From Escherichia phage vB_EcoM-813R1, in the sequence record ON470617.2: a stretch of DNA of 64,000 nucleotides; one strand, written 5' to 3'. The position numbers were made by a program, and so were the translations under genes. Shown here one piece after another: positions 862-28,300 of the stretch (position 1 is its first letter; each line of letters starts with the position of its first letter). The notes under the pieces are model-generated. The model ran no database searches. It was given only the letters and a program-made list of their open reading frames with translations, and was not told the origin of the DNA.

Positions 862-1113
862 GTGTGTGCTGGAGGGCAGCTGCATTCAAAAATGTGTGCT
901 GCCGGGAAGGCTTGTCCAATTTCCTGTTTTTGATGTGCGCTGGAGGGGGACGCCCCGCAGTTTGCCCAGACTTTCCCTCCAGCACACATCTGTCCATCAG
1001 TCTTTCCCTCCAGCACACATATTTGATACCAGCGATCCCTCCACAGCACATAATTCAATGCGACTTCCCTCTATCGCACATCTTAGACTTTTATTCTCCC
1101 TCCAGCACACATC
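861..1113. repeat. incA: incA-like iteron array (copy-number control): about 8 copies of a 19-bp iteron, three direct then five inverted
   Basis: Repeated motif (a/g)aTGTGtGCTGGAGGG at 861, 891 and 932 on the top strand, and CCCTCCAGCACACAT-type inverted copies at about 972, 1003, 1035, 1066 and 1094. Confidence 0.75.
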
Positions 1114-1386
1114 GAAGCTGCCGGGCAAGCCGTTCTCACCAGTTGATAGAGAGTGAAGCCTGGCTGCCCGTTGAAGCAGGAAATCACCAAAATGATTCAG
1201 GCTACAACCTGAACATAGAAGAAATCCGCGTCCTTTATACGTGGAGGATGCCAAAGCATGTTGTGACACACTTGGCAAAGGAGTAAACATGCAGAGAATG
1301 CTATGTACAAGCATCTACGCATACATTATTATTTTATGCAGCATTTTTAATTAAATTCAAAAATACAGCATAAAGGATGACTTTCG

Positions 1387-2583
1387 ATGAGTGATTCCAG
1401 CCAGCTTCACAAGGTTGCTCAAAGAGCAAACAGAATGCTCAATGTTCTGACTGAACAAGTACAGTTGCAAAAGGATGAGCTACACGCGAACGAGTTTTAC
1501 CAGGTCTATGCGAAAGCGGCACTGGCAAAATTGCCTCTACTGACTCGAGCGAACGTTGACTATGCCGTAAGTGAAATGGAAGAAAAGGGCTATGTTTTCG
1601 ATAAACGCCCTGCTGGCTCTTCAATGAAATATGCGATGTCAATTCAGAACATCATTGACATATATGAACATCGCGGAGTGCCAAAATACCGGGATCGCTA
1701 CAGCGAAGCGTATGTGATTTTCATCTCCAATCTTAAAGGCGGTGTGTCAAAAACTGTATCGACGGTTTCTCTGGCGCATGCAATGCGTGCCCACCCTCAT
1801 CTTCTGATGGAAGATTTAAGGATTCTGGTTATTGACCTTGATCCGCAATCTTCAGCAACGATGTTTTTAAGCCATAAACACTCTATTGGTATCGTAAACG
1901 CAACATCTGCACAGGCTATGTTGCAGAATGTAAGCCGTGAAGAGCTGTTAGAGGAGTTTATTGTTCCTTCTGTTGTACCTGGGGTTGACGTTATGCCTGC
2001 GTCGATTGACGATGCCTTTATTGCATCCGATTGGAGAGAGCTGTGCAATGAGCATCTACCGGGTCAGAACATCCATGCTGTCCTGAAAGAAAATGTGATT
2101 GATAAGCTGAAGAGCGATTATGACTTTATCCTCGTTGATAGTGGTCCTCACCTTGACGCCTTCCTGAAAAATGCTTTGGCCTCGGCCAATATACTGTTTA
2201 CACCTCTGCCGCCAGCAACTGTCGATTTCCACTCATCGCTTAAATACGTTGCCCGCCTTCCTGAGTTGGTGAAACTCATTTCGGATGAAGGCTGCGAGTG
2301 CCAGCTTGCGACTAACATTGGTTTTATGTCCAAGTTGAGTAACAAGGCAGATCATAAGTATTGCCATAGCTTGGCTAAAGAAGTGTTCGGTGGGGATATG
2401 CTCGATGTCGTCCTCCCTCGCCTTGACGGTTTTGAACGTTGCGGCGAGTCTTTTGACACTGTTATTTCAGCTAACCCGGCAACGTATGTTGGTAGTGCTG
2501 ATGCATTGAAGAACGCGCGAATTGCCGCGGAAGATTTTGCTAAAGCAGTTTTTGACCGTATTGAATTTATCAGATCTAACTGA
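1387..2583 (+). CDS. parA: Partition ATPase ParA (type Ia, with N-terminal HTH extension)
   Basis: 398-aa ORF with deviant Walker A (KGGVSKT) and the long N-terminal extension typical of P1/F-type ParA; lies directly upstream of parB and parS. Confidence 0.9.
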   Translation: MSDSSQLHKVAQRANRMLNVLTEQVQLQKDELHANEFYQVYAKAALAKLPLLTRANVDYAVSEMEEKGYVFDKRPAGSSMKYAMSIQNIIDIYEHRGVPKYRDRYSEAYVIFISNLKGGVSKTVSTVSLAHAMRAHPHLLMEDLRILVIDLDPQSSATMFLSHKHSIGIVNATSAQAMLQNVSREELLEEFIVPSVVPGVDVMPASIDDAFIASDWRELCNEHLPGQNIHAVLKENVIDKLKSDYDFILVDSGPHLDAFLKNALASANILFTPLPPATVDFHSSLKYVARLPELVKLISDEGCECQLATNIGFMSKLSNKADHKYCHSLAKEVFGGDMLDVVLPRLDGFERCGESFDTVISANPATYVGSADALKNARIAAEDFAKAVFDRIEFIRSN

Positions 2584-2599
2584 GGAGTAAGAAACCCCC

Positions 2600-3601
2600 A
2601 TGTCAAAGAAAAACAGACCAACAATTGGGCGAACCCTTAATCCTTCAATATTAAGCGGATTTGATAGTTCTTCAGCCTCTGGCGATCGAGTCGAGCAGGT
2701 ATTCAAGTTATCAACTGGTCGCCAGGCCACATTTATTGAAGAGGTAATACCTCCGAACCAGGTAGAAAGCGATACCTTTGTTGATCAGCATAACAACGGG
2801 CGTGACCAGGCATCTCTTACGCCAAAATCATTAAAAAGTATCCGAAGCACTATTAAGCATCAGCAATTTTACCCTGCAATAGGTGTTAGACGGGCTACAG
2901 GGAAAATTGAAATTTTGGATGGTTCCCGGCGTCGAGCTTCTGCCATCTTAGAGAACGTAGGGTTGCGGGTTTTAGTCACGGACCAGGAGATCAGCGTTCA
3001 GGAAGCGCAAAATTTAGCGAAAGACGTTCAGACAGCATTGCAGCACAGCATTCGAGAAATAGGTCTGCGTTTGATGCGAATGAAAAATGATGGGATGAGT
3101 CAGAAGGATATTGCAGCCAAGGAAGGGCTGTCTCAGGCGAAAGTCACGCGTGCTCTCCAGGCAGCGAGTGCTCCGGAAGAATTAGTCGCCCTTTTCCCTG
3201 TGCAGTCGGAATTAACCTTTTCGGACTACAAAACGCTTTGTGCTGTTGGCGACGAAATGGGGAACAAGAATTTAGAGTTTGATCAGCTTATTCAAAACAT
3301 ATCCCCGGAAATAAACGACATCTTATCCATTGAAGAAATGGCCGAAGATGAAGTTAAAAATAAAATCCTGCGCTTGATAACAAAGGAAGCCTCACTACTC
3401 ACGGATAAAGGTTCTAAAGATAAGTCCGTAGTTACTGAATTATGGAAATTTGAGGACAAGGATCGCTTTGCAAGGAAGCGCGTGAAAGGCCGTGCATTTT
3501 CTTATGAGTTTAATCGACTTTCAAAAGAGCTACAGGAAGAACTCGACAGGATGATTGGGCATATCCTTAGAAAGAGCCTCGATAAAAAGCCGAATCCTTA
3601 A
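2600..3601 (+). CDS. parB: Partition centromere-binding protein ParB
   Basis: 333-aa ORF overlapping-adjacent to parA with an RBS (ggagtaag); followed by a parS-like site. Confidence 0.9.
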   Translation: MSKKNRPTIGRTLNPSILSGFDSSSASGDRVEQVFKLSTGRQATFIEEVIPPNQVESDTFVDQHNNGRDQASLTPKSLKSIRSTIKHQQFYPAIGVRRATGKIEILDGSRRRASAILENVGLRVLVTDQEISVQEAQNLAKDVQTALQHSIREIGLRLMRMKNDGMSQKDIAAKEGLSQAKVTRALQAASAPEELVALFPVQSELTFSDYKTLCAVGDEMGNKNLEFDQLIQNISPEINDILSIEEMAEDEVKNKILRLITKEASLLTDKGSKDKSVVTELWKFEDKDRFARKRVKGRAFSYEFNRLSKELQEELDRMIGHILRKSLDKKPNP

Positions 3602-3605
3602 ACTT

Positions 3606-3692
3606 TCGCCATTCAAATTTCACTATTAACCTACTGTTTTTAAAGTAAATCACTCTAAAATTTCAAGGTGAAATCGCCACGATTTCACCTTG
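3606..3692. promoter_or_regulatory. parS: parS centromere: ParB heptamer boxes (ATTTCAC) and hexamer boxes (TCGCCA) flanking an AT-rich IHF-type core
   Basis: tcgccATTCAAATTTCACtattaac...ttttaaagtaaatcactctaaaatttcaaggtgaaaTCGCCAcgATTTCACcttgg immediately after the parB stop. Confidence 0.75.
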
Positions 3693-3826
3693 GATTTTAC
3701 CTTCCTCCCCTACTCCCGAAAAAAATAAAAAAATTGCTTGTCACGAGAAAGTCAACAAGTGACTTTCAATAAAATCTCTTCCGAAAAGGGATTCACACAA
3801 GTGCCTTGTGTTTAAGGAAGAGTAAA

Positions 3827-5532
3827 TTGAGTAACTTACGCGAATACCAGAATCGTATTGCAGATATCGCAAAACGCTCTAAAGCTGTGCTTGGCTGGGC
3901 AAGCACTGCGCAGTTCGGTACTGATAACCAATTCATTAAAGATGATGCCGCGCGTGCCGCATCTATCCTTGAAGCTGCACGTAAAGACCCAATTTTTGCG
4001 GGTATCTCTGATAATGCCACCGCTCAAATCGCTACAGCGTGGGCAAGTGCACTGGCTGACTACGCCGCAACACATAAATCTATGCCACGTCCGGAAATTC
4101 TGGCCTCCTGCCATCAGACGCTGGAAAACTGCCTGATTGAGTCCACCCGCAATAACATGGACGCCACCAATAAAGCGATGCTGGAATCAGTCGCGGCAGA
4201 GATGATGAGTGTTTCTGACGGGGTTATGCGTCTGCCTTTATTCTTGGCGATGATCCTGCCTGTTCAGTTGGGGGCAGCTACCGCTGATGCGTGTACATTC
4301 ATTCCGGTTACGCGTGACAAGTCCGAAATCTATGAAATCTTTAACGTAGCGGGTTCTTCTTTTGGCTCCTATGCTATTGGTGATGTTCTGGACATGCAAT
4401 CCGTTGGCGTGTACAGTCAGTTGCGCCGCCGCTATGTGCTGGTTGCAAGCTCCGACGGCACCAGCAAAACTGCAACCTTCAAGATGGAAGATGTCGAAGG
4501 TCAGAATGTCCCGATTCGCAAAGGTCGCACAAACATCTACGTTAACCGTATTAAGTCTGTTGTTGATAACGGCTCCGGTACTCTGCTTCACACATTCAAT
4601 AACAAAGCAGGCGAACAAATCACTGTTACTTGCTCTTTGAATTACAACGTTGGTCAGATTGCCCTGTCGTTCTCCAAAGCGCCGGATAAAGGCACTGAGA
4701 TCGCCATTGAGGCGGAGATCAATATAGAAGCAGCTCCTGAGCTGATCCCACTTATCAACCACGAAATGAAGAGTTACACCCTGTTCCCAAACCAGTTCGT
4801 CATCGCGGCTGAGCACACGGTACAGGCGGCGTATGAAGCACAGCGTGAATTTGGTCTGGATCTAACTCCCTACAGTTCCGCACCCTGAAGGAATACCTAT
4901 CCCATGAGCAAGATATGCTTCGTCTTCGTATCATGATTTGGCGAACTCTTGCGACCGACTCCTTTGATATTGCACTACCAGCTAACCAGACCTTTGATGT
5001 GTGGGCAACCATCATTCGAGGCAAATTCCAGACGGTATATCGCGGTATTATTGAGCGTGTTAAATCTTCTGGTGCGATGGGGATGTATGCCGGTGCTGAT
5101 GCGGCATCTTTCTTCAAACAATTGCCGAAGGATTTCTTCCAGCCAGCAGAAGATTACATCCAGACCCCATACGTCCACTACATTGGCACTCTGTTCGGCA
5201 ACGTCAAAGTGTTCGAAGTACCAGAAGGTATTTGTACGAACCTGACCGCCGACGGTATCCAGTTCAGCCCAATGGATGTGCTGTGCTACGTCCGTGATGA
5301 AAATCCGGGCAAAGCGGGCTTCGTAACTGGTGATGCAGTCCCGGCTGTCCCATTCCAGCATCCGACCACCCCGGCACTAGTCAACCGAACCACTCTGTGG
5401 GGTTCGGCTATCAACGATATGCATCCACGCAACGGTGCTGACTACTTCACCCGTGTAACTCTGACTATGGCAAAAAATGGCGGAATTAACTTCCTGACCG
5501 GTAACACGATTGATGCTGGTGACTCTGAGTAA
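3827..5532 (+). CDS. Large virion structural protein, probably major head protein precursor (P1 gene 23 position); split by an apparent frameshift near 4870-4890
   Basis: Two ORFs (3806-4888 in frame 2 and 4915-5532 in frame 1) with frame 1 open upstream to at least 4861, so a single-base change fuses them into about 565 aa. Probable TTG start at 3827 after RBS aaggaag. Assigned by synteny (first gene after parS). Confidence 0.45.
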
Positions 5533-9160: not shown

Positions 9161-9184
9161 AAAGCTCCTACGGGAGCTTTTTTG
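9161..9184 (+). terminator. Rho-independent terminator closing the head/tail operon
   Basis: aaAGCTCCtacgGGAGCTtttttg: GC stem followed by a T-run. Confidence 0.6.
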
Positions 9185-9224
9185 TGCTTAAATTATGCCG
9201 GTATAGCGAAATTTTGAGCATATT

Positions 9225-9521
9225 ATGGAAATTGATTTTTCATACTCTCCTGAAACGATAGAACGAAGATTCGAAATAATTGGATGTAAAACTATTTCAG
9301 AGGAGCATTATTGGATTCTCTATGATGCCAATACATGGTTATGTGCCTTAGCAGAATGTCGGCCATCGTTATGTGCAGGGGAGGGAGGACTTCGACATAA
9401 GGTGCTGGCTACACTTGAAGTGAACACGTTACGATATTGGTGTGTCGAAATACTTAGGGATAACAAAGAATTACATTTATTATTGCTGAATAAGTGTGCG
9501 CCTCTGCGCAGGAAAGCATAA
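9225..9521 (+). CDS. Hypothetical 98-aa Cys/Trp-containing protein
   Basis: Isolated ORF in the variable region between the structural operon and the DUF3800-like module; no recognisable motif. Confidence 0.3.
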   Translation: MEIDFSYSPETIERRFEIIGCKTISEEHYWILYDANTWLCALAECRPSLCAGEGGLRHKVLATLEVNTLRYWCVEILRDNKELHLLLLNKCAPLRRKA

Positions 9522-9687
9522 GAAAACCCAACCGCCATACTGGAATTATCAGAAGAATATGTGCGGAAAGTTATAGCTAGCTATTGAAAAGCTAAAGTAG
9601 ATCGGTTAGATTTACCTTACTCATCTACCATGCGTAGAAAGAGCGATCGAACCCGATACATAGCAATATGTGTCGGGTTCAGCTTTT

Positions 9688-10167
9688 TTATGTCCCAAGT
9701 GCTCTTTTTCTGCTTTGTTTGAGTGTTCTGATTTTACTGTCATAGGTTACAACATAGGCTGTTTTGAGAAGCCAATAGTCTCTACGTGCGGATAGCACAA
9801 CAACGTAGTTTTCACACTCGTTCCAGATTACCCACTCTTCAGTTGGTCCTCGTCTTTCAGACCAACATGATATATCGCAATGGTCATAATTCCTTATCAT
9901 ATGCGCGATCCAGCGGATCCGCTTACACCGTTCAAGATCAGGTATTCGTTCTTCTTCTATTTTTCCCTCTGATACTAAATGCCAAAATCCGAACTCTTTC
10001 CCATCATATTCCGGTGAATAACGTAATCGAACAGGGAGACCCTTAAACGTTATATTAGAGATTAAAATATCTTCTCTAACAACATCATATACATCGTCTA
10101 TATACTCTTGCCAACTTCCATTGAAGTACAATAAATCTGGCATTTGAAGCATCAGCGAGCCTCCCAC
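9688..10167 (-). CDS. Hypothetical 159-aa protein, downstream partner of the DUF3800-like gene (candidate accessory/defence module)
   Basis: ORF directly downstream of and overlapping the DUF3800-like gene on the same strand; AT-rich; Trp/Cys-rich with no motif I can assign. Confidence 0.4.
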   Translation of the reverse strand: MGGSLMLQMPDLLYFNGSWQEYIDDVYDVVREDILISNITFKGLPVRLRYSPEYDGKEFGFWHLVSEGKIEEERIPDLERCKRIRWIAHMIRNYDHCDISCWSERRGPTEEWVIWNECENYVVVLSARRDYWLLKTAYVVTYDSKIRTLKQSRKRALGT

Positions 10168-10854
10168 ACGAAAATATTAAATTTACTTTCTGTTGGAAGA
10201 GTGCTTTTTAGTAACTCCCTGTTTGTATGTGATTTTATCCTGTTTATGACTTGGATTTTTCCCGCGTTGCTATTCATTCCTCGATGAACGTAGCCTAACG
10301 CACCAATGAAAAGATCCGTTAGCTGCAATTGTTGCACTTCATGAGATCGTATATGTTGAATTCTGTTTATCGACTCATGATTGTAATCATAGCGATCATT
10401 GTGAAGAACTCCTCTTAATTTCTCAATTTTTTCAATACCTAAAGTATCTTTTATATCTAGGTAGATATTGTATGTGTTGTTACTTTCTATTATGTTTTTT
10501 AAGACATAAAAAACATCTTATAATAGAAAGTATTGTGATCTTGATGGAATCGAGCATGGTCCAGTTGCTCTTTATCAGGAACAACAACACCTCTAAAGCG
10601 CAATGCTGGGTTGCTGAAGAAGTAATCTACGACCTCTAAGTAAAATTCAACTTTGGACGCAGATACTTTAGTCCACTTGATTTCGAAATCAGGTTTTAAA
10701 TTGTGTTTTAATTTTAATCCCTTGATGTCTCTAGCAATTTTTTTGTGATAGTGCCAGGACACCAAAGCGCACCCAATACCATGACTTTATTATGATCATT
10801 TAGTAGGTGACAGGATTCATCGCAGAATACATTAAATGTTCTTCGGTTCAACAT
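10152..10854 (-). CDS. DUF3800-like protein (N-terminal FCDES motif, C-terminal QLTDLFIGA motif); apparently frameshifted at a T7 run near 10740 and again near 10490
   Basis: Minus-strand start (+10852-10854) gives MLNRRTFNVFCDESCHL...; joins ORF 10499-10765 through a 7-nt homopolymer; downstream piece contains QLQLTDLFIGALGYVH. About 233 aa in total; strongly AT-rich. Confidence 0.45.
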
Positions 10855-11002
10855 GTTAACTCCACTTATTGTTAGGTAGAATTGTCCGTTAGTTGTTTAT
10901 TAATTGCAATAATGGGACGTTCTGATTTGCTAACTACGTCATCTTACCAGGACGCCTATGAGTTTTCCTCATGGCAAACTAGAGGTGTTGAAAGTATGCA
11001 TG

Positions 11003-11865
11003 GTTATAATTAGAGCAATCTATCACCCTCTGAATCCTACCGGTATACCCCATTGTTCGTTATCTTTATTTTTGGCTAATACCGCATTAAGTGCTTCGTT
11101 TACCGTCATGCAATGCGGTAGATTATCGAAGTTTGATATCCAGCCAATATCAGGAGAACGCTTGTTCTTCAGGTAAGCATATTTCCGCGCTGCCGCCTCT
11201 ACTTTCTGCTTGAACTCATGTTTTTGAGCGCGTTTTTGGATAACCGCAGATTGTCAGCCTTTGCTTTTGCCTCAGCGATCCATGAAGTCAGTTTTTTGAG
11301 GCTGGTCGTTCCGGTACCGCCGGAAACTGATCTTTTTGTTTTTTAATTTGTGACTTCTTATTCTTTATTGCCACGTCATCCTGACAGGGGAGGGGGTATC
11401 ATTTTGACATGGGGGTGTGGATAAAAAATCAAATAAAGCCAATGTCTTAGCGAGAACAGCTTTAACCTTGGTTGCGGCTGAAGAGATCTTTAATTTGCTT
11501 TCAATCAGCGCGTTTTTAGCGTGTTGTGCGAAGGCCAAAAAGGATGGTGTAAACCGGTACAGGTTAGCGCGGCGTTCACGGTGATCGCCGATAACAATCT
11601 CTACAGACAGAATTCCTTTGTTTACAGCTTCACGGAATGCACGAACGACGGTTGATTGGCTATAACCAGTTTCTGCCGCGATCAGGCGGTGAGGCTTGTG
11701 AATGAAGTATTCACTGGTTGTTGCCGCGAGATTTGCACATTGCGACAGGATATGCCCGGCGCTACGGGATAAACCGGAGTGTGTTACAAAGCAGGCCAAT
11801 TCATAGCCAGAAAAAGTAAAATCGCTCATCGTTATACAGCTCAGGAAAGTGACTTTAGCCAGCAT
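11003..11865 (-). CDS. repL: RepL-like lytic replication protein (HTH), apparently frameshifted near 11210 and 11350
   Basis: 166-aa ORF (11365-11865) with HTH GYSQSTVVRAFREAVNKGIL directly downstream of kilA; protein-like reading frames continue on the minus strand to about 11003, giving about 280 aa as expected for RepL. Confidence 0.45.
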
Positions 11866-16587: not shown

Positions 16588-17199
16588 ATGGGGCTTAATG
16601 TTGCTTCAGTAAAGTCTTATGTATCTTCGGCATTAACGACGACATTATTTGGCTCCGGCGTTGGTGAGCGGGAAGTTGGTAAGCTGACGTCAATCATCAT
16701 GAACAAAATGCTGTTCGCGCAAGGATGGCAGTTCTCTGTCGAAGTTGATGGTCTGGAGGGGGCAGACTTCTTTGCTAAAGACATTACCTACCACGATTAC
16801 AGCATCGAATATGAAACGATTAAAATCGGCGGAGGGAATATCCTTCAGCCAACGGAGCGTTCGCCTGGGCAGATAACAATGATGGTCAGGGATACCGTTG
16901 ATGGCCTCGTTTTGGACTGGTTTAAGACGGCAAAAAGTCGGGTGATCAATCCGGACGGTACCGGGAATATACCGTCTAAATATTTGCTCAATGTGCGTAT
17001 TTATCGGTTGCTGTCCTCCGGTTTAACCAAACTGGAAAATGAGATGACGGTATTCCCGGTCACTACCGGCGATGTCACCTATGCGCGGGATCAGGTTACG
17101 GAATTTAAGTCATTCCCAATGACCTTCGCATTGCACAGCACGTTTAACCAATCCTCAAGTTCTTTGGCTTCCCTTCTGGGCTTTAGTTTTTCTCTTTGA
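16588..17199 (+). CDS. Probable tail tube protein (P1 tub position)
   Basis: 203-aa intact ORF with RBS gagggggc; synteny-based. Confidence 0.35.
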   Translation: MGLNVASVKSYVSSALTTTLFGSGVGEREVGKLTSIIMNKMLFAQGWQFSVEVDGLEGADFFAKDITYHDYSIEYETIKIGGGNILQPTERSPGQITMMVRDTVDGLVLDWFKTAKSRVINPDGTGNIPSKYLLNVRIYRLLSSGLTKLENEMTVFPVTTGDVTYARDQVTEFKSFPMTFALHSTFNQSSSSLASLLGFSFSL

Positions 17200-17213
17200 A
17201 TTAAGGAGCAAGG

Positions 17214-18164
17214 ATGCTTTTACCCCTTTTCCCGCTACCATCGCGGCCAACTGAATTGATCCAGTTCCGTCAGCCAAATATTGCTGATGCGATGCGTTTC
17301 AACTCGATAACACTGGAGGAACAAGAACAACAGACAACGGCGTATTTAAAAGCCTTGCTGGCTGAACCCGCGAAACATGATCCCCTGACATGGACGGCGC
17401 AGGACCGGATTACCGCGTTATGGTGGATATTTACCGGCTCCCGTGAAACACCGGTCGAGACATTCACCTACACCTGTAAACATTGCGGTAAAGAGCATTA
17501 TTACGATTGCGATATGAATGCTCTGGCTGAAGATATCCAGGTCCTGGAAGTGGAACCTTTCATTGACGATATTGAGGTGTCTGTAGAGGAGTACCTTATC
17601 AATGGCGTATCGTGCCGCTTGATGGTTGGGCAATGGAAATGCTGGAGATGCGCCGTGCAGCATTGCCACCTGAAGACGACGCGGAATTCAAAGAAGCGAT
17701 CGTTGATTTGCGTTTTTGGGAATTCGCTTATCAGTGTGAGCTTTATAACGATGTTAGCGGTACTCGTGAAGATCAGGCTGAGCGTCGTTATGAAACGATT
17801 AAACGGATGGCCATTGATACTGAATTTATGAAGCTGGCTGCACACATCCGGCTGGCTCATGAAAAGCTCGAACATGGTTTACCGTGCTACATCGATAAAG
17901 GCGAAATGCGTCTTCGTCTCCCGCCGCACAAATGCCCAAACCAGGATACAAAGGAGTCCACAGAGGGTGCGTATACCCGTCTGTGGGTGCCCTTTCGGGC
18001 TACCGACTTCATTCCACAGGTGGGGATTGAAAAGCTATCAGACCTTAGTGTCCAACCTGGTTTTGTATGGGGGTATACCGATTCAGGACGCTGAAAGGCT
18101 CACTGAATCCTATGCGTTTTTCCTGTTGGAGAAACTGGAAGAAAAACTTAAACCGAAGCGGTAG
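17214..18164 (+). CDS. Putative morphogenetic protein (P1 pmgB position), with two apparent frameshifts (about 17620 and 18070)
   Basis: ORF 17214-17831 turns into Cys-rich junk after about 17620, while ORF 17612-18094 continues protein-like; C-terminus again switches frame at gggggtat (about 18065). Confidence 0.35.
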
Positions 18165-18175
18165 GCGATAAGATC

Positions 18176-21100
18176 ATGGAAAGAAAAAACGCCAACATTG
18201 ACGATGTTATAAGGACAGTTGAAACCGCCAGCGCGAAAGAGCTGGAAGAGCTTGCAGGTATTCGGGAAGCTGTTGAAGATTTGAAAGGGGAACGAGTTGC
18301 AACTGTTGATCCTGTCTCTCGCAGTGTGTCGGCATTAAATCGCACAATCGAAAATTCACGTCCTGACTTTGTGACCAATGTGCCATCAGTGGACTCTATT
18401 GTTGACGCAATGAAACGGCTTAATTTAGGGGACGTTTCTCGTATACGGAGGACAAAGTCACTAACCGTGAACAGCAGGCTGCACCAACAGCGCACAATCC
18501 CCCAAATAGACGAAGAGAGGCAATAACAGAGGATGTTAAAGCACAGCGGTTAGAAACGGTCAAACTCGCTCGTGATTTGAAAGGGGAACGCGTTGCAACG
18601 GTTGACCCAGTATCTCGCAGTGTGTCGGCATTAAATCGAACAATCGAAAATTCCCGGCCAGACTTTGTGGCCAATGCGCCATCAGTGGACTCTATTGTTG
18701 ACGCAATGAAACGGCTTAATTTAGGGGGCGTTTCTCGTATACGGGAGGACAAAGTCACTAACCGTGAACAGCAGGCTGCACCAACAGCGCACAATCCCCC
18801 AAATAGACGAAGAGAGGCAATAACAGAGGATGTTAAAGCACAGCGGTTAGAAACGGTCAAACTCGCTCGTGATTTGAAAGGGGAACGCGTTGCAACGGTT
18901 GACCCAGTATCTCGCAGTGTGTCGGCATTAAATCGAACAATCGAAAATTCCCGGCCAGACTTTGTGGCCAATGCGCCATCAGTAGACCCTATTGTTGACG
19001 CAATGAAACGGCTTAATTTAGGGGACGTTTCTCGTGTAGTTCAGGAGGGCATTGCTCAACAGGAACAGCAGGCCAAATCAACTACACCAAAGGGTAAAAA
19101 AAGACGCAGGAAGGCTATAACAGAAGATGTAAAGGCGCAACGGACCGAAGCAGCCGAACACGCTCGCGAAATGTTCGGTCAAAAAGGCGGTGCGCAAAAA
19201 GCCAAAACCAACGCGATGCGCGTGGTCGTTTTATTGGAAAGTCAGGGAGTAAGGCCGCAGCGGAAGATGCCCGTGCTGAACGTGCTGAAAAGGCCAGGCG
19301 CAAAGAGGATGATGAGCGTCTAAATGCTGAATCAGGTTTATTAAAAAAACTGTCAAAAGTAGCTGAAGGCATAGGTAACCCTTCAGAGACTCGTGCCGTC
19401 GATGCGTTAGGTTATGCCGTTGCTGGTCCATTGTGGGCAGCAGGGAAGGAGCTTGGCGGGATATCAAAAGAAGTTGGTGGATCGCTTAATGGCGCCAGAA
19501 AGTCTATTGCCGATGTGATTCGTGGCAATGACGATAACAGCCGTAGAAAAGGTTTTTTAGGCGTAAATCGCAAAATAGTGCCGATGTCGTTCAGGTTAAC
19601 ACCCAAAAACGGACGGTTCAGGAACTTCAGGAGCAGACCAGCGAAATTAAAGAGGGCAATGACAAGATTCTCAGCGCCCTTGATCAGATAGCCAAAAACA
19701 CCGGGAAAAAGAAGGGCGGCTTGCTGTCCAAACTATTTAGCCTGTTAGGGAAGGGGGCCGGTGGCGTCGCGTCGTTGTTAATGGGGCGTGGCATGCTGAA
19801 AAAGCTGGAGCACTCGCTTTTGGCGCTCTGGGGGTAAAGAAACTTGTAGGAATGCTACGCGGTGGTGGTAAGAAGACTCTCGCCCATGAAGGCGGAGATT
19901 TGGCTGCCCGGGCAGCAGGTAAACTTGGATTAAAGGCAGTTGGTAAAGGGGCGTTACGCGCAATTCCCCTAGTCGGCACAGTGGCTGGAGGTATTTATGA
20001 TGCGGTAACCGGTTGGAATGATACAGAAGCGCAACGTCGAGCGTTTGGGCTTAAATCAGGACAAGATCCATCATTCCAGCAAAAAGCCGCTTATACGTTA
20101 GCTAATATTCTTGATATGGGGGGACTGGTATCTGGTATTAGCAGCGCCATTGGTGAGGTTCTCAAATCACTTGGATTTGAGGATATCGGCAATATGTTGC
20201 AATCATTTTCGACGGAAAGTATTGCACAGGCCATTGATAGTGGGGTTACCAACTTAGAAACATATATTTCTAATCTTGGCGACACCATTTCTACCAAGTT
20301 CGATGATTACACAGCAAAGATTGGTGATGCTGTTTCAGCATGGTTTAGCGATACATCTAATAAGTTGCTTGAAAAGCTGGATGCCATAAAAGACTTCTTT
20401 ACTGTCGATAACCTGAAACAGGTTTTCAGTGATGCAATTGATAGTGCAATTGATTTCATTAAGAACCCGGGGAAACACATTAAAGAGGCGGCTGGTAATA
20501 TTTGGGATGGGGTTAAAAATTTACCCGGTAAAGCAATAGATGCAGCGTTTGATGCCGTTAAAAATACCCCTGCGGCAATAATTGTATCAAAAATACCCAA
20601 TCCGATCGGCGAGGCTAATGCGAAAGAAATCACTCCAGAGTTAAAAGCTCCGGTTAATAGCCACCAGGAGACGTCTGATTCTAAAACTGAATCCGATGCC
20701 AAACAGAGTAATATTGCTACCCGCGTGATAAATGCGGCACTGGACACGGCGAAAGATAGCAATAAAACAGTTAAACAAACTGCCAATCAGATTATCAATG
20801 CAAATGCCGTAGAAACGGGCAATAGCGCGTTGCAGAAAATTGATAAAGCTATTGGTCAAAATAGCTCGTCATCATCCTCGCTTAATACCACTGGCACCAG
20901 GAATGACATTCAGAAAGCTGCGGATACCTACAATAATGGCAACTTGGATGTAAAAGTCGGAAGTCTTGGAGCTGAAGGTAAGGCAAATCTCGATAAGTTG
21001 GCTCCGTATTTTGCTGAACTAGAGAATAAATATAGCCTTCCTGAAGGTACTCTTTACGCGATCGCTGCAACTGAATCTGGTGGTGATCCTAACGCAAAAT

Positions 21101-22188
21101 CTACGCTTACAAGATCACCAAATGGAAAGCTAAGTGGTGGCGCTCTCGGAATGTTCCAGTTTACGAGCGTTGCTCGTGAGGAAACTGGATTATCCCGGGA
21201 AGATTCTTTTAATCCGGAAAAATCGGCAGAAGCTGCGGCTCTTCTCATGAGCAAGTATCTGAAGCAAGCCAATGGAGACTTAAACGAGGCCATCACTGCA
21301 TATAACGCTGGGTTTGGCACTATTAATAAGTGGAAAAAAGGCACAGGTGACTTATCGAAAGAAAACCGTGAGTACGCGATCAAGGTCAATACTCATCGTG
21401 CTCGCTATTTAGGTGGTGAAATCTATACACCTGGGGCAGGAGCACAGGGTGGGGCGCAATATGGAGTGAGGGGACCACTGCCTGATAACGCCGTTATCGA
21501 TCAGTCTACTGGTCTGGCGTTTACCCTGGTGATAGCCCGTTTGAGAAAGGCGGTCTGGTAGACAAAATCGGCAATGCTGTTGGCGTTAACGATCTGGTCA
21601 ACAAATTCATGAATGGCCGGGGGATGCGTCGGGAAGTCGTCCAGGGGAACCCTCGAAGAACGTGCACGAGGAAGGGGAACCGCAACGGCAGCTGGCAATG
21701 TGTATGTTGATACACCTATGCCAGTTGAAGAGGCACGTCCGGTGGCCAACAACTCAAGTTACTTTGACCAGCTCGGCGCACAAATGGGGATTGATGGACT
21801 GTATGACAAACTCATTAATGCCCGGGGAATGCGCTCAAATAATTCTCCTCAACCAGCCTCCACGTCCCAGGTGACGACTGCCGCCAACGATTTGCAGCAA
21901 CCAACCGGTCGTATGCAGATAGACGGACAGGTTATTAGTGACCTTGGTGGCTCCGGTGCCAAGCCGACAATGCAGTTGGCTGATAATACCGTTTCACTTG
22001 ATGGTGAAACGAAGCGGCTGTTTGCGCAGATGACCTCATTGCTTGCCAGGATTGAAGAGCACACCAAAGACTCAGCGAAAGGCCAGGGAACTGTCGTAAA
22101 GGTCAGCACGCCTCAGCCGGGCGTTATGCGCACGGTACCACTGTCAATTGATGATCCGTTGATGAATGACTACGCGAGAGTTGATTGA
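18176..22188 (+). CDS. sit: Sit-like tape-measure / injection transglycosylase (soluble lytic transglycosylase domain about 21000-21400); multiply frameshifted
   Basis: Consecutive protein-like ORFs (18176-18526, 18577-19323, 19431-19691, 19852-21561, 21613-22188) in shifting frames; SLT-type motif GALGMFQFTSVAREETGLS...AEAAALLMSKYL; three 300-bp tandem repeats at the N-terminal end. Confidence 0.55.
18283..19180 (+). repeat. Three tandem copies of a roughly 300-bp coding repeat inside sit
   Basis: Motif LKGERVATVDPVSRSVSALNRTIENSRPDFV(A/T)N(A/V)PSVD(S/P)IVDAMKRLNLG repeated starting near 18283, 18580 and 18880; copy 1 differs from copy 2 by one G in a G-run (tacggagg versus tacgggagg). Confidence 0.8.
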
Positions 22189-22544
22189 TGGCCAACAATA
22201 ACGAAATTGATCCTTTGCTGACGCTGGAGTTATCCGGCGTAAAAACGTATGAGTCCCAGGAGGAGGCCTGGGGCGCTCGTTTATATGAGTGGCTAAACAC
22301 TTATCAGGGTGAGGTATACGGGGATCCGTCATGGGGCAATGTTTTACCGCAGTTTAAACACGAACCGACCAACTTGTCGCATGTTCAAATTGCGGTTGAG
22401 GCAATGCTGTTGCAAAAACTGACGGTAGATTTACCTGACATACCGATTTCTGGCTTGTCAGTAGCCGAGGGAGATGCTTTTGATAAGTTGAAAATATCCA
22501 TTCGTATCAGGGATATAACTATCACACAGGACGTGGTGCTATGA
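22185..22544 (+). CDS. Small baseplate protein (P1 pmgA position)
   Basis: 119-aa ORF translationally coupled (ATGA overlaps) to neighbours on both sides. Confidence 0.35.
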   Translation: MMANNNEIDPLLTLELSGVKTYESQEEAWGARLYEWLNTYQGEVYGDPSWGNVLPQFKHEPTNLSHVQIAVEAMLLQKLTVDLPDIPISGLSVAEGDAFDKLKISIRIRDITITQDVVL

Positions 22545-23974
22545 GTAAAACAACACCGACTAAAGACAGTATTCGTGCAGAGTTTGAAGAGCTTGTCGAG
22601 AAAGATTCATTCTGGTCGAAGTTTGTCGGCTCTCAATTTGTCTCGATGCTGACATTGTTTATTACCCAGATTGTCTACAGGTGCTTTCAGTATGCCGATG
22701 CGGCGCTGGCTGAAGGCTTTATATCGACCGCGACGCGGCGTTCCTCTATCCTGGCAGCGGCAGAAACGAATAGTTACGTTGGTACCAAGCCAACACCGTC
22801 ATCGGGGATGATTGAGATCACCGCCACAAGTGAAGATGCCCCAGCGGTAATCCCCAAAAATATGCCTTTAATATCTGACGACCAGTACCCTTACATGACT
22901 ATGGATGTATGCAGGTTGGTTGACGGCACCGGTACGGTAGAAGTGGCACAGTTGGAAATCCAGGAGGTGACATATACCGTTACGGCAGCCAAAGAATTTC
23001 TGGAAGTCGTGTTATCAAAGGCTCTCACTGCTGTCTGCTATAAGCTGGAAGTATTCGTGACGACCGATGGTAAGACCACGCAGTGGTCTTCCAGCACTAT
23101 GTTCCGGTTAGCCGGTAGTAAAAGCCAGGTCTACGTTGAGTTTTATAAACCATCCGAGCAGTTGGGGGTTCGATTCGGTGATGGGCTAATTGGGCAAATA
23201 CCGCCAGAAGGCTCGACCATTACACTTAAGGTATGGTGCACCAACGGAGATATAACCTTGGTTGCTGGCCAAAATCTGACGCCTGTCGATTCTGCGGCTA
23301 ATTTAGCTAATTTGATTTCAGTTAAGACAACGACACCCATAACCGCAGGTACCGATGCCGAAACAACGGAGATCACACGTAATCGTGCACAATATTACCT
23401 TGCCTATGATGATCAGGTCGTATGGGGCGGGGACTATACGTATTTTCTGGTGCGTAACATCCCGGGACTGTCCTGGGTAAAGGCATGGGGCGAAGGCCAG
23501 CAAGAGAAATTAGATGGTGCTTATAATGTTCGGAATATCAATAAGATATTTATTTCAGGATGGCATCCAAACAAAAGCCAGTCAGAGCTTGAAGAAATGA
23601 TCCTGGCTGCCTTTAAGAAGGTGCCGAATGAGTTGAACAAGAAATTCTCGTATAAAGAGGTCAGAAAACTACCCTTTAAGATCACCATCACTGGGCGGAT
23701 ATCGGCAAGCCTGACCATTGAGAACGTGACTGATGAGCTGAAGTCGGCACTGGAAACAAAATTTGGGCGTGACTCAACTTTCTTTGATCCGAACCGTGTC
23801 GGCAAGTACATTCTAATCAAGAAAAAAGACGTTTGGGCATTTATCGAAACGCTGGGTTATTTCCGCGACTTTTATCTGGAATTTGTCGAGTGGAATGAGT
23901 CCAACGGCTTTTACGATTTCGTTTATCTGGATACAGAAAACTCCACCTTTAATATTTCGTATGAGGAGGAGTGA
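22541..23974 (+). CDS. Baseplate protein (P1 bplA position)
   Basis: 477-aa intact ORF overlapping its neighbours by 4 nt; synteny with the baseplate cluster upstream of tail-fibre genes. Confidence 0.45.
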   Translation: MSKTTPTKDSIRAEFEELVEKDSFWSKFVGSQFVSMLTLFITQIVYRCFQYADAALAEGFISTATRRSSILAAAETNSYVGTKPTPSSGMIEITATSEDAPAVIPKNMPLISDDQYPYMTMDVCRLVDGTGTVEVAQLEIQEVTYTVTAAKEFLEVVLSKALTAVCYKLEVFVTTDGKTTQWSSSTMFRLAGSKSQVYVEFYKPSEQLGVRFGDGLIGQIPPEGSTITLKVWCTNGDITLVAGQNLTPVDSAANLANLISVKTTTPITAGTDAETTEITRNRAQYYLAYDDQVVWGGDYTYFLVRNIPGLSWVKAWGEGQQEKLDGAYNVRNINKIFISGWHPNKSQSELEEMILAAFKKVPNELNKKFSYKEVRKLPFKITITGRISASLTIENVTDELKSALETKFGRDSTFFDPNRVGKYILIKKKDVWAFIETLGYFRDFYLEFVEWNESNGFYDFVYLDTENSTFNISYEEE

Positions 23975-25334: not shown

Positions 25335-28300
25335 ATGAATGACGTTACAGTTGTTACATCGGTTACTTACCCATCACCCGAGTCGTTGGCTCTGGTGGCT
25401 GATGTGCAATACCACGAACCATATCTGTCAGCCGCTCTAAACCGAAAATTCAGGGGAATTGTTGACCCGGGATTTTATGCTGGTTTCTTGCCTAAGCCTG
25501 GCGGTGGGATGAAACTGTTAATCACCTCAGTGGATGGTGATAAAACCGCTGGCGCGGCGTCAGTGAATATTGGTGAATTCTACCAGGTAACTATTCAGCA
25601 GCGTAAGGATATTTCTCTTGCACTTAGCGCAGGTAAGAAATATGCAATTGTGCTGAAGGGAAGATACCTCCTTGGAGAAGATTCTTATCAGGTTAATACC
25701 GCGTCACATATTCATGCGGCTGAATTTGTTGCCAGAACCTATACCGATTCATATCAGTTAGGAGATGGGGAACTGCTTGTTTGTACGGTGAATATCCCTG
25801 CTGGCGTATCTGCTATTACTCAGGAAATGATAGATGTATCCGACCGCATCGATCTCACGATAGGCATTGAAATTTCCGACTCTGTAACCAGTACCAGAAG
25901 TGATGTCGCTGCAAGTTCGCTGGCAGTTAAAAAAGCCTACGATCTGGCGAAAAGCAAGTATACGGCGCAGGATGCAAGCACAACGCAAAAGGGATTAGTT
26001 CAGCTCAGTAGTGCTACTAACAGCACGTCTGAAGTGCTGGCCGCCACACCGAAAGCTGTCAAGGCTGCATATGACCTGGCTAACGGGAAGTATACGGCCC
26101 AGGATGCAACCACGACACAAAAAGGGATAGTTCAGCTCAGTAGCGACACCAACAGCACTTCTGAAACATTAGCTGCAACGCCAAAAGCGGTTAAAGCTGC
26201 ATACGATCTAGCAGCCGGAAAGGCACCATCCAGTCATACACATCCCTGGAATCAGATCACTGGTGTGCCAACAGCTTCATTGACAGCGAAAGGCATCACT
26301 CAGCTCAGTAGCGACACCAACAGCACTTCTGAAACATTAGCTGCAACTCCAAAAGCGGTTAAAGCTGCATACGATCTAGCAGCCGGAAAGGCACCATCCA
26401 GTCATACACATCCCTGGAATCAGATTACTGGTGTGCCAACAGCTTCATTGACAGCGAAAGGCATCACTCAGCTCAGTAGTGCCACTAACAGCACGTCCGA
26501 AGTGCTGGCCGCCACACCGAAAGCAGTCAAGGCAGCATATGACCTGGCTAACGGGAAGTATACGGCCCAGGATGCAACCACGACACAAAAAGGGATAGTT
26601 CAGCTCAGTAGCGACACCAACAGCACTTCTGAAACATTAGCTGCAACTCCAAAAGCGGTTAAAGCTGCATACGATCTAGCAGCCGGAAAGGCACCATCTA
26701 GTCATACACATCCCGGAATCAGATTACTGGTGTGCCAACAGCTTCATTGACAGCGAAAGGCATCACTCAGCTCAGTAGTGCCACTAACAGCACGTCCGAA
26801 GTGCTGGCCGCCACACCGAAAGCAGTCAAGGCAGCATATGACCTGGCTAACGGGAAGTATACGGCCCAGGATGCAACCACGACACAAAAAGGGATAGTTC
26901 AGCTCAGTAGCGACACCAACAGCACTTCTGAAACATTAGCTGCAACTCCAAAAGCGGTTAAAGCTGCATACGATCTAGCAGCCGGAAAGGCACCATCTAG
27001 TCATACACATCCCTGGAATCAGATTACTGGTGTGCCAACAGCTTCATTGACAGCGAAAGGCATCACTCAGCTCAGTAGCGACACCAACAGCACTTCTGAA
27101 ACATTAGCTGCAACTCCAAAAGCGGTTAAAGCTGCATACGATCTAGCAGCCGGAAAGGCACCATCCAGTCATACACATCCTGGAATCAGATTACTGGTGT
27201 GCCAACAGCTTCATTGACAGCGAAAGGCATCACTCAGCTCAGTAGTGCCACTAACAGCACGTCCGAAGTGCTGGCCGCCACACCGAAAGCAGTCAAGGCA
27301 GCATATGACCTGGCTAACGGGAAGTATACGGCCCAGGATGCAACCACGACACAAAAAGGGATAGTTCAGCTCAGTAGCGACACCAACAGCACTTCTGAAA
27401 CATTAGCTGCAACGCCAAAAGCGGTTAAAGCTGCATACGATCTAGCAGCCGGAAAGGCACCATCCAGTCATACACATCCCCGAATCAGATCACTGGTGTG
27501 CCAACAGCTTCATTGACAGCGAAAGGCATCACTCAGCTCAGTAGTGCCACTAACAGTACGTCTGAAGTGCTGGCCGCCACACCGAAAGCTGTCAAGGCTG
27601 CATATGACCTGGCTAACGGGAAGTATACAGCCCAGGATGCAACCACGACACAAAAAGGGATAGTTCAGCTCAGTAGCGACACCAACAGCACTTCTGAAAC
27701 ATTAGCTGCAACGCCAAAAGCGGTTAAAGCTGCATACGATCTAGCAGCCGGAAAGGCACCATCCAGTCATACACATCCCTCGAATCAGATCACTGGTGTG
27801 CCAACAGCTTCATTGACAGCGAAAGGCATCACTCAGCTCAGTAGTGCCACTAACAGCACGTCCGAAGTGCTGGCCGCCACACCGAAAGCAGTCAAGGCAG
27901 CATATGACCTGGCTAACGGGAAGTATACGGCCCAGGATGCAACCACGACACAAAAAGGGATAGTTCAGCTCAGTAGCGACACCAACAGCACTTCTGAAAC
28001 ATTAGCTGCAACTCCAAAAGCGGTTAAAGCTGCATACGATCTAGCAGCCGGAAAGGCACCATCCAGTCATACACATCCCTGGAATCAGATCACTGGTGTG
28101 CCAACAGCTTCATTGACAGCGAAAGGCATCACTCAGCTCAGTAGTGCCACTAACAGCACGTCTGAAGTGCTGGCCGCTACACCGAAAGCTGTCAAGGCTG
28201 CATATGATTTGGCTAATGGAAAGCAAGCGGCAGACGCTACGCTCACTGCTCTAGCGGCACTAGCTACCGCAGCAGATAAACTCCCTTATTTCACAGGGGT

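What the first reader, a model, noticed from the sequence alone, without database searches (positions are those of the whole stretch)
18283..19180. Three tandem 300-bp coding repeats at the start of the Sit-like tape-measure gene
The N-terminal region of sit contains three near-identical about 100-residue repeats. In tape-measure proteins length scales with tail length, so in-frame repeat gain or loss is a plausible route to tail-length variation; alternatively the repeats could be collapsed or expanded by the assembler. Copy 1 differs from copy 2 by a single G in a G-run, which creates the first frame break.
Basis: seen in the sequence. Interest (0 to 1): 0.45.

Follow-up and report, generated by a model that had tools for sequence, protein, structure and literature searches.

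The report
Copy-number-variable repeat in P1 tape-measure gene
The start of the tail tape-measure gene (sit) of this P1-like phage-plasmid carries three copies of a 99-codon unit that phage P1 has once and many relatives have twice; the expansion is real and arose by unequal recombination, but the frame breaks are almost certainly sequencing errors, and any effect on tail length is untested.

Summary
The repeat is real. Three head-to-tail units start at 18278, 18574 and 18871 (296/297/297 nt), from codon 35 of sit (18176-22188).

Each unit has a conserved 165-nt "A" half and a 132-nt linker. Units 1 and 2 carry linker b. Unit 3 carries the P1-type linker b', only 62% identical to b.

P1, P7, RCS47 and SJ46 have one unit. 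About 40% of sit-bearing complete E. coli records have two, at most 2% have three, and none has more. Intact three-unit ORFs (1338 and 1340 aa) occur on 15 and 8 public contigs, so this is not an assembler artefact.

The middle unit is a chimera of the two flanking unit types, as unequal crossing-over predicts. A second three-unit lineage has a different junction, so expansion happened at least twice.

The frame break at the G-run (18447-18448) is one of 37 one-base indels relative to the closest plasmid. Of these, 36 are deletions, and 32 lie in homopolymers or at Dcm sites. The window's sit has no substitutions against that plasmid's intact gene. These are base-calling errors.

Whether extra units lengthen the tail (about 4-4.5 tube rings per unit predicted) is plausible but untested. 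This is a modestly interesting, ordinary kind of tape-measure polymorphism.

The parts
18176..22188 (+). sit orthologue (tail tape-measure protein with a lytic transglycosylase domain). 4013 nt here, 4017 nt (1338 aa) when the six one-base indels are repaired.
   Evidence: 97.8% identical to P1 sit outside the extra units. Identical to the intact sit of NZ_CP068934.1 apart from 6 one-base indels, with 0 substitutions. Gene order is tub-pmgB-sit-pmgA-bplA.
18278..18573 (+). Repeat unit 1 (296 nt): A1 half 18278-18442, linker b 18443-18573 lacking one G.
   Evidence: Identical to unit 1 of the two-unit allele of NZ_CP093228.1 apart from the missing G.
18574..18870 (+). Repeat unit 2 (297 nt): chimeric A half 18574-18738 (A2-type at nt 1-104, A1-type at nt 114 and 118, private G at nt 155), linker b 18739-18870.
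   Evidence: unit alignment. This is the extra unit relative to two-unit alleles.
18871..19167 (+). Repeat unit 3 (297 nt): A2 half 18871-19035, P1-type linker b' 19036-19167. This unit is collinear with the 3' part of P1's single unit.
   Evidence: Window sit 696-4013 aligns to P1 sit 103-3423..
18447..18448 (+). G-run with one G missing (GG here, GGG in unit 2 and in all nine compared alleles). It causes the first frame break, with a stop ending at 18526.
19196..19196 (+). One-base deletion in an A6 run of sit.
19553..19553 (+). One-base deletion in a T7 run of sit. The same G2T7 stretch is also shortened by one base in NZ_CP060921.1 and NZ_CP102674.1.
19799..19799 (+). One-base deletion in an A6 run of sit.
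21524..21524 (+). One-base deletion in a C4 run at a CCTGG (Dcm) site of sit.
21644..21644 (+). One-base insertion in a G run at a CCAGG (Dcm) site of sit. It is the only insertion among the 37 indels.
21007..21366 (+). SLT lytic transglycosylase domain of Sit (aa 946-1065 of the intact 1338-aa protein). Window coordinates were converted from L003.
   Evidence: Pfam PF01464, E = 7e-26.
17214..18094 (+). pmgB, the proposed tape-measure chaperone, immediately upstream. It is broken by a one-base deletion at 17588.
   Evidence: The role is the one proposed in PMC9024508.

Best explanation
The window carries a genuine three-unit allele of the P1 tape-measure gene sit.

Shown:
- The unit is 99 codons: a conserved 55-aa A segment plus a 44-aa basic linker predicted to be disordered.
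- The two-unit allele common in P1-like plasmids has the form [A1-b][A2-b'].
- The window's allele is [A1-b][A2/A1 chimera-b][A2-b']. This is the product expected when the A2 segment of one copy of a two-unit gene recombines out of register with the A1 segment of another copy, with the crossover between unit nt 104 and 114.
- The allele is maintained as an intact 1338-aa ORF in other plasmids.
- The six frame breaks in the window are uncorrected long-read base-calling errors, not mutations.

Inferred, about 50% likely: Sit is the tail ruler. The extra 2 x 99 residues sit at its head-proximal N-terminus and extend the ruler. Tube and sheath would then polymerise further before termination. That gives roughly 4-4.5 extra tube rings per unit, or about 60-61 rings against 52 in P1.
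For: Repeat anatomy.

Copy number in relatives:
- P1 sit has one unit.
- Two-unit genes of 3720 and 3741 nt are intact.
- Three-unit genes of 4017 and 4023 nt are intact in NZ_CP068934.1 (Netherlands), NZ_CP041960.1 (USA) and NZ_CP130449.1 (Senegal).
- The exact 1338-aa protein is on 15 contigs and the 1340-aa protein on 8. Length ladders of 1140/1239/1338 and 1142/1241/1340 aa occur in two protein clusters.
- Linker b occurs in 137 of 479 sit-bearing PLSDB records (145 places) and in 198 of 472 complete E. coli records (207 places, at most 2 per genome).

Recombination:
- The chimeric middle unit is shown.
- A second three-unit lineage (NZ_CP060921.1, NZ_CP102674.1) has a different junction, with the middle unit fully A2 followed by b.
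- A1 and A2 differ at 10 synonymous against 3 non-synonymous codons, so both copies are selected as protein.

Sequencing errors:
- 36 of 37 indels are one-base deletions in the window.
- 26 lie in runs of 4 or more bases (p = 4e-23), 12 lie within 3 nt of CCWGG (p = 4e-10), and 32 fall in one or the other class.
- 32 of 37 are in coding sequence, which matches the coding fraction. 19 of 47 CDS are hit.
- sit has 0 substitutions against 6 indels relative to CP068934.

Ruler role, from the literature:
- Sit is a virion protein assigned as the tape measure, and its N-terminal two-thirds are predicted to be helical (PMC9024508).
- The P1 tube has 52 rings, and Sit lies unresolved in the tail lumen and baseplate (PMC12810830).
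- phi456, which has a two-unit sit, forms plaques.
Against: - No reads are available, so neither the copy number in this particular assembly nor the error status of the indels is directly verified.
- The G3 run at 18447 is a shorter homopolymer than most error sites. It is one of the 5 indels outside the two main error classes.
- No experiment links Sit length to tail length in P1.
- Pfam finds only the SLT domain and no tape-measure family.
- The single-sequence AlphaFold2 model is of low confidence (pLDDT 50). It shows the linker as non-helical, so the unit may not behave as a rigid 1.5 A per residue ruler.
- 99 residues is not a whole number of tube rings.
Confidence: 0.8

Rival explanations
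1. The units are real and translated but lie outside the length-determining part of Sit. They would form an N-terminal accessory module, for example a docking site for the PmgB chaperone or the tail terminator, a basic segment that contacts the DNA end, or a part that is trimmed. Copy number would then be nearly neutral and would not change tail length.
For: - The linker is basic, rich in Pro and Gly, and predicted non-helical: unit pI 10.1, and the AF2 model has no helix across about 35 residues of each linker.
- The module has no detectable relatives outside P1-like Sit. Only 3 representative clusters were found among 1.84 billion proteins.
- More distant Sit relatives (about 41% identity) have a single, poorly conserved version that keeps only the AMKKLNLG motif.
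- In lambda gpH and T4 gp29 the ends of the ruler have assembly roles rather than purely metric ones (own knowledge of Katsura 1987 and Abuladze 1994).
Against: - P1 has only about 22 Sit residues per tube ring even when the globular SLT domain is counted. That leaves little room for a non-ruler N-terminus.
- Synonymous changes dominate between A1 and A2 (10 against 3), so the copies are not neutral filler.
- Engineered duplications in other tape measures do lengthen tails (cited in PMC13585406).
Confidence: 0.4
2. The three-unit arrangement in this window is an assembly artefact, an expansion of a true two-unit gene.
For: The window is a low-accuracy assembly. Tandem repeats can be mis-counted.
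Against: - The block is only 891 nt, which long reads span easily.
- The same arrangement, including the private G at unit-2 nt 155, is in three independent complete plasmids.
- The intact protein is on 15 contigs.
- The window's sit is base-for-base identical to one of those plasmids apart from homopolymer indels.
Confidence: 0.03
3. The frame breaks are real. sit, and much of the element, would be decaying in a defective phage-plasmid that survives only as a plasmid.
For: Sit is broken into at least five ORFs, and 19 of 47 compared CDS carry indels. P1-like plasmids that no longer make phage do exist (own knowledge).
Against: - Decay would give substitutions, nonsense codons, insertions and larger deletions. 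Here sit has 0 substitutions.
- 36 of 37 indels are one-base deletions concentrated in homopolymers and Dcm sites, the known signature of nanopore base-calling.
- The indels hit coding and non-coding DNA in proportion to their lengths.
Confidence: 0.05

Closest known systems
Sit of Escherichia phage P1 (YP_006507.1, 1140 aa; putative tail ruler and structural injection transglycosylase)
   Same: Orthologue. About 97-98% nucleotide identity outside the extra units, the same SLT domain, and the same tub-pmgB-sit-pmgA-bplA neighbourhood.
   Different: P1 has one unit and the window has three (+198 aa). Linker b of units 1 and 2 is absent from P1, P7, RCS47 and SJ46.
Sit of plasmid pRIVM_C029554_1 (NZ_CP068934.1, WP_225104282.1, 1338 aa), and the 1340-aa Sit of pEC2_5 and p211899A_LBHALD (WP_250663835.1)
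   Same: The same three-unit allele with the same chimeric middle unit. The window's sit is identical to CP068934's apart from six one-base indels.
   Different: Those records have an intact ORF. The window's copy is broken by presumed base-calling errors.
Two-unit sit alleles (for example NZ_CP093228.1, 1239 aa; phage phi456, 1231 aa)
   Same: Units 1 and 3 of the window equal units 1 and 2 of the NZ_CP093228.1 allele. This is the likely parent allele. phi456 is a plaque-forming phage.
   Different: They lack the chimeric middle unit.
Length-engineered tape measures of lambda (gpH), T4 (gp29) and TP901-1
   Same: How it may work: in-frame duplications or deletions in the ruler change tail length proportionally (cited in PMC13585406; own knowledge of Katsura 1987, Abuladze 1994 and Pedersen 2000).
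   Different: There is no sequence relationship. The effect is not demonstrated for P1. Here the variation is natural, sits at the extreme N-terminus, and comes in 99-aa steps.
Tandem-repeat evolution of siphophage tape measures (Belcaid et al. 2011, cited)
   Same: Tape-measure length evolves by gain and loss of units.
   Different: Those units are short. Myovirus tape measures are reported mostly to lack tandem repeats (PMC13585406), so a 99-aa tandem repeat in a myovirus tape measure is less usual.

Membership tests
P1 Sit orthologue | High identity to P1 sit along the gene, in the same gene neighbourhood | tested here: met
   Window sit 696-4013 aligns to P1 sit 103-3423 at 97.8%. Gene order is tub-pmgB-sit-pmgA-bplA.
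P1 Sit orthologue | C-terminal-proximal SLT lytic transglycosylase domain | tested here: met
   PF01464, E = 7e-26, at aa 946-1065 of the intact three-unit protein.
Phage tail tape-measure protein | Match to a curated tape-measure family | tested here: not met
   Pfam gives only SLT. The best PHROG (phrog_2533) has no assigned function. The PDB sequence search found nothing.
Phage tail tape-measure protein | Long, largely helical virion protein encoded between the tube/chaperone genes and the baseplate genes | tested here: inconclusive
   The gene position is met. The virion location and helical prediction come from PMC9024508. My own AF2 model is mostly helical but of low confidence, pLDDT 50.
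Phage tail tape-measure protein | Changing the protein's length changes tail length | not testable with these tools
   This needs electron microscopy of virions with one-, two- and three-unit alleles. No tail measurements were found for two-unit phages.
Tandem-repeat expansion by unequal homologous recombination | The new unit is a chimera of the flanking unit types, with a single switch point | tested here: met
   The middle unit has A2 markers at nt 18-104 and A1 markers at nt 114 and 118, followed by linker b.
Tandem-repeat expansion by unequal homologous recombination | Independent events with different junctions, and contracted alleles, in the population | tested here: met
   The lineage II three-unit alleles have a fully A2 middle unit. 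The single units of P1, RCS47, SJ46 and Ro157 are A1-like at nt 18-66 and A2-like at nt 81-118, followed by b'; P7 shows a slightly different marker pattern.
Uncorrected long-read (nanopore-type) base-calling errors | Indels are overwhelmingly one-base deletions in homopolymers and at Dcm (CCWGG) sites, and occur in coding and non-coding DNA alike | tested here: met
   36 of 37 are deletions. 26 of 37 lie in runs of 4 or more bases, 12 of 37 lie at CCWGG, and 32 of 37 are in one or the other class. 32 of 37 are in coding DNA, which makes up 87% of the sequence.
Uncorrected long-read (nanopore-type) base-calling errors | Read pile-ups show the true base count | not testable with these tools
   No reads are available.

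The most novel reading that the evidence does not exclude
P1-like phage-plasmids carry a natural allelic series of the tail ruler, with one, two or three 99-aa N-terminal units. Unequal crossing-over repeatedly creates and collapses this series. It would produce discrete tail-length morphs of about 52, 56-57 and 60-61 tube rings, on which selection could act, for example through host capsule or O-antigen thickness. The series would also settle experimentally the old question of which protein is P1's tape measure.
Probability: 0.4. Interest if true: 0.5.

Novelty: new member of a known kind. Interest (0 to 1): 0.3.

Why it matters
If the units are part of the ruler, strains already in collections offer a ready-made one-, two- and three-unit series. 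That series could test whether Sit measures the P1 tail. The assignment is still bioinformatic and was historically disputed with gp6 (PMC9024508). It could also calibrate residues per ring in a myovirus whose tape measure is unresolved by cryo-EM (PMC12810830).

Practically, the finding shows that this window is an unpolished long-read assembly. Its many broken genes should not be read as pseudogenes. The sit repeat is also a place where short-read assemblies of P1-like plasmids may break.

Tried and rejected
- A word-indexed protein search with the 430-aa N-terminus returned only 22 hits, mostly partial proteins. It could not give a length distribution. I used exact-cluster look-up and linker-specific DNA searches instead.
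- AlphaFold2 on a two-unit N-terminal fragment (P0001) gave pLDDT 50. I took only a weak secondary-structure hint from it and ran no fold search.
- Nothing relevant was found by Pfam tape-measure families, a PDB sequence search, Rfam on 17000-20500, or a promoter/terminator scan of 17900-19400.
- An exhaustive HMMER search with one unit found only 3 representative clusters, all Sit-like. The module therefore has no informative distant relatives.
- The phi456 paper gives no tail length, and no paper on 673R5 was found. No paper describing the sit repeat polymorphism was found.
- I considered and rejected a programmed frameshift at the G-run. The G is present in all nine compared alleles and in unit 2 of the window, and the site is one of 37 scattered homopolymer indels.
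- I considered and rejected a gene on the minus strand. The 183-aa ORF at 18420-18971 is a by-product of the repeat, with no support.

Full report
**What the window is.** The region is the late tail operon of a P1-like (IncY) phage-plasmid. The stretch 17500-20500 matches P1, P7, RCS47 and related phages at 94-97%. The window starts at repA. It is collinear with plasmid pRIVM_C029554_1 (NZ_CP068934.1) at 98.3-99.7% identity over the three collinear blocks. The gene holding the finding is the orthologue of P1 sit. It starts at 18176 and ends at 22188.

**The observation.**
- Tandem Repeats Finder reports one array in 17000-23000: 18278-19035, period 297, 2.6 copies, 96% matches. The repeat finder reports three 297-nt copies.
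- Anchoring on the motif GATTTGAAAGGGGAACG gives unit starts at 18278, 18574 and 18871.
- Each unit is 99 codons and splits into two halves. The 165-nt A half is conserved. The 132-nt linker half comes in two forms.
- Units 1 and 2 carry linker b, identical in both apart from one missing G in unit 1. Unit 3 carries linker b', which differs from b at 50 of 132 positions and is the form found in P1.

**Copy number in relatives.**
- One unit: P1 sit is 3423 nt (1140 aa). P7, RCS47, SJ46 and Ro157c2YLVW also have one.
- Two units: many plasmid records have two. The 1301-nt query spans 1004-1006 nt in the record, with intact genes of 3720 and 3741 nt.
- Three units: seven PLSDB records have three. 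In three of them the gene is intact at 4017 or 4023 nt: NZ_CP068934.1 (Netherlands), NZ_CP041960.1 (USA) and NZ_CP130449.1 (Senegal).
- Census with linker b as a probe: it is present in 137 of 479 sit-bearing PLSDB records (145 places). It is present in 198 of 472 complete-genome E. coli records (207 places, never more than two per genome). Roughly 40% of sit-bearing E. coli records therefore have two units, at most 2% have three, and none has four.
- One record with two linker-b places, NZ_CP029117.1, has places that each span only two units. It probably holds two separate two-unit genes.
- The exact 1338-aa protein is recorded on 15 contigs and the 1340-aa protein on 8. Two Sit protein clusters each show a ladder, 1140/1239/1338 and 1142/1241/1340 aa.
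- The three-unit allele is therefore real, recurrent and kept open.

**How the allele arose.**
- Aligning all units from ten alleles shows the two-unit allele is [A1-b][A2-b'], with 13 diagnostic differences between A1 and A2.
- In the window and its three closest three-unit relatives, units 1 and 3 equal those two units. The middle unit has A2 bases at the diagnostic sites from nt 18 to nt 104, A1 bases at nt 114 and 118, then linker b.
- That is the product expected from out-of-register homologous recombination between A2 of one gene copy and A1 of another, with a switch between nt 104 and 114. One later private change (G at nt 155) is shared by all four.
- A second group of three-unit alleles (NZ_CP060921.1, NZ_CP102674.1 and their near-duplicate records, all from Hangzhou) has a middle unit that is A2 throughout, followed by b. 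Its unit 1 is also a different A1 variant. That is a different junction, hence an independent expansion.
- The single units of P1, RCS47, SJ46 and Ro157 are A1-like at nt 18-66 and A2-like at nt 81-118, followed by b'. P7 shows a slightly different marker pattern. This is what a contraction of a two-unit gene would leave, although the direction cannot be fixed without an outgroup.
- A1 and A2 differ at 10 synonymous and 3 non-synonymous codons. b and b' differ at 11 codons synonymously and at 23 non-synonymously. The A segment is under purifying selection in both copies. It is far less diverged than the linker, which suggests homogenisation by recombination, a foreign origin of b, or both.

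**The frame breaks.**
- Against NZ_CP068934.1 the window has 37 indels in about 46 kb of aligned sequence. Of these, 36 are one-base deletions in the window.
- 26 lie in runs of four or more identical bases (6.4% of positions; p = 4e-23). 12 lie within 3 nt of a CCWGG Dcm site (2.9% of positions; p = 4e-10). 32 fall in one class or the other.
- The indels hit coding DNA in proportion to its share (32 of 37 against 87%) and would break 19 of 47 genes.
- Within sit there are six indels and no substitutions.
- This is the familiar signature of unpolished nanopore-type base-calling (own knowledge), not of gene decay.
- The missing G at 18447-18448 sits in a run of only three G's. It is a slightly less typical site, but the G is present in unit 2 of the window and in all nine compared alleles.
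- With the six sites repaired, the gene is 4017 nt and encodes the 1338-aa protein already seen on 15 contigs.

**What the units may do.**
- Sit is a virion protein and has been assigned as the P1 tape measure. The grounds are its size, its position after tub and pmgB, a predicted helical N-terminal two-thirds, and the SLT domain. pmgB is proposed as its chaperone (PMC9024508).
- Cryo-EM of P1 counts 52 tube rings and could not resolve Sit (PMC12810830).
- That gives about 22 Sit residues per ring, or about 1.8 A per residue at a 40 A rise. The rise is my assumption, by analogy with T4.
- So little slack exists for a large non-ruler part, which favours the N-terminal units being part of the ruler. 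On that basis each unit would add about 15-18 nm, or 3.7-4.5 rings. The three-unit allele would give about 60-61 rings.
- This step is inference. My own evidence on structure is weak. A single-sequence AlphaFold2 model of a two-unit fragment has pLDDT 50. It shows helices in the A segment and at the end of the linker, with about 35 non-helical residues between them.
- The unit is basic (pI 10.1). It has no detectable relatives beyond P1-like Sit: 3 representative clusters among 1.84 billion proteins. More distant Sit relatives have one poorly conserved version.
- phi456, with a two-unit sit, forms plaques. Extra units are therefore compatible with infectivity. No tail length was reported.

**Comparison with what is known.** Tape-measure length change by in-frame duplication is established for lambda, T4 and TP901-1, and repeat gain and loss is a described mode of tape-measure evolution (PMC13585406 and its references). 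The same paper reports that myovirus tape measures mostly lack tandem repeats. A 99-aa repeat series in P1-like myoviruses is therefore a somewhat unusual member of a known kind. I found no paper describing it, although the alleles are present in public records, annotated only as transglycosylase-domain proteins.

**Verdict.** The repeat is real and polymorphic, and it was created by unequal recombination at least twice. The three-unit count is not an artefact. The frame breaks are sequencing errors. The tail-length consequence is plausible (about 0.5) and easily testable, but it is not shown. Interest is modest.

Noticed in passing
whole window; examples 888, 3719, 11233, 13906, 17588, 29254, 47239: 37 one-base indels relative to NZ_CP068934.1. 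36 are deletions, concentrated in homopolymers and at CCWGG sites, and they would break 19 of 47 compared genes. The window looks like an unpolished long-read assembly, so apparent pseudogenes elsewhere in it should be distrusted.
   Followed up: yes
window 25956-28223: The tail-fibre (S-like) gene contains a complex tandem array with periods of 132, 168 and about 300 nt, up to 3.9 copies, at 96-98% identity. The window aligns collinearly across it to NZ_CP068934.1, where the tail-fibre CDS is 3522 nt. Three of the one-base deletions fall at CCTGG sites inside the repeats.
   Followed up: partly
L001 3780-4076 (P1 sit nt 103-399); also L010-L013: The single unit of P1, RCS47, SJ46 and Ro157 is a mosaic relative to two-unit alleles. 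It is A1-like at diagnostic sites 18-66 and A2-like at 81-118, followed by linker b'. P7 shows a slightly different marker pattern. The reference P1 allele may itself be a contraction of a two-unit gene.
   Followed up: partly
L006 and L007, about 1378 nt into sit (equivalent to window 19553): The second three-unit lineage (NZ_CP060921.1, NZ_CP102674.1 and near-duplicate records) lacks one base in the same G2T7 stretch that is shortened in the window. This truncates the ORF at 505 aa, and PLSDB lists no sit CDS there. It is either a shared homopolymer error hot spot or a real frameshift.
   Followed up: partly
window 9183-11009, against NZ_CP068934.1 9190-11870: The collinear alignment breaks here. 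The window's segment is about 850 nt shorter and does not align by megablast. This is a replaced or deleted segment near the DUF3892 and ParA-family genes.
   Followed up: no
window about 35390-36600 (NZ_CP068934.1 36270-37478): A TnpB-family (insQ) gene lies on the opposite strand, downstream of darA and among genes of the opposite orientation.
   Followed up: no
protein hits P0002-P0019: Many public Sit entries are flagged 'partial' and are 265-742 aa long. Several represent dozens to hundreds of member sequences. Short-read assemblies of P1-like plasmids may often break in or near sit, possibly at this repeat.
   Followed up: no
NZ_CP029117.1 (hits H67, H203): One 120.8-kb plasmid has two separate places matching linker b, and each place spans only two units. 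It probably carries two copies of the sit region.
   Followed up: no
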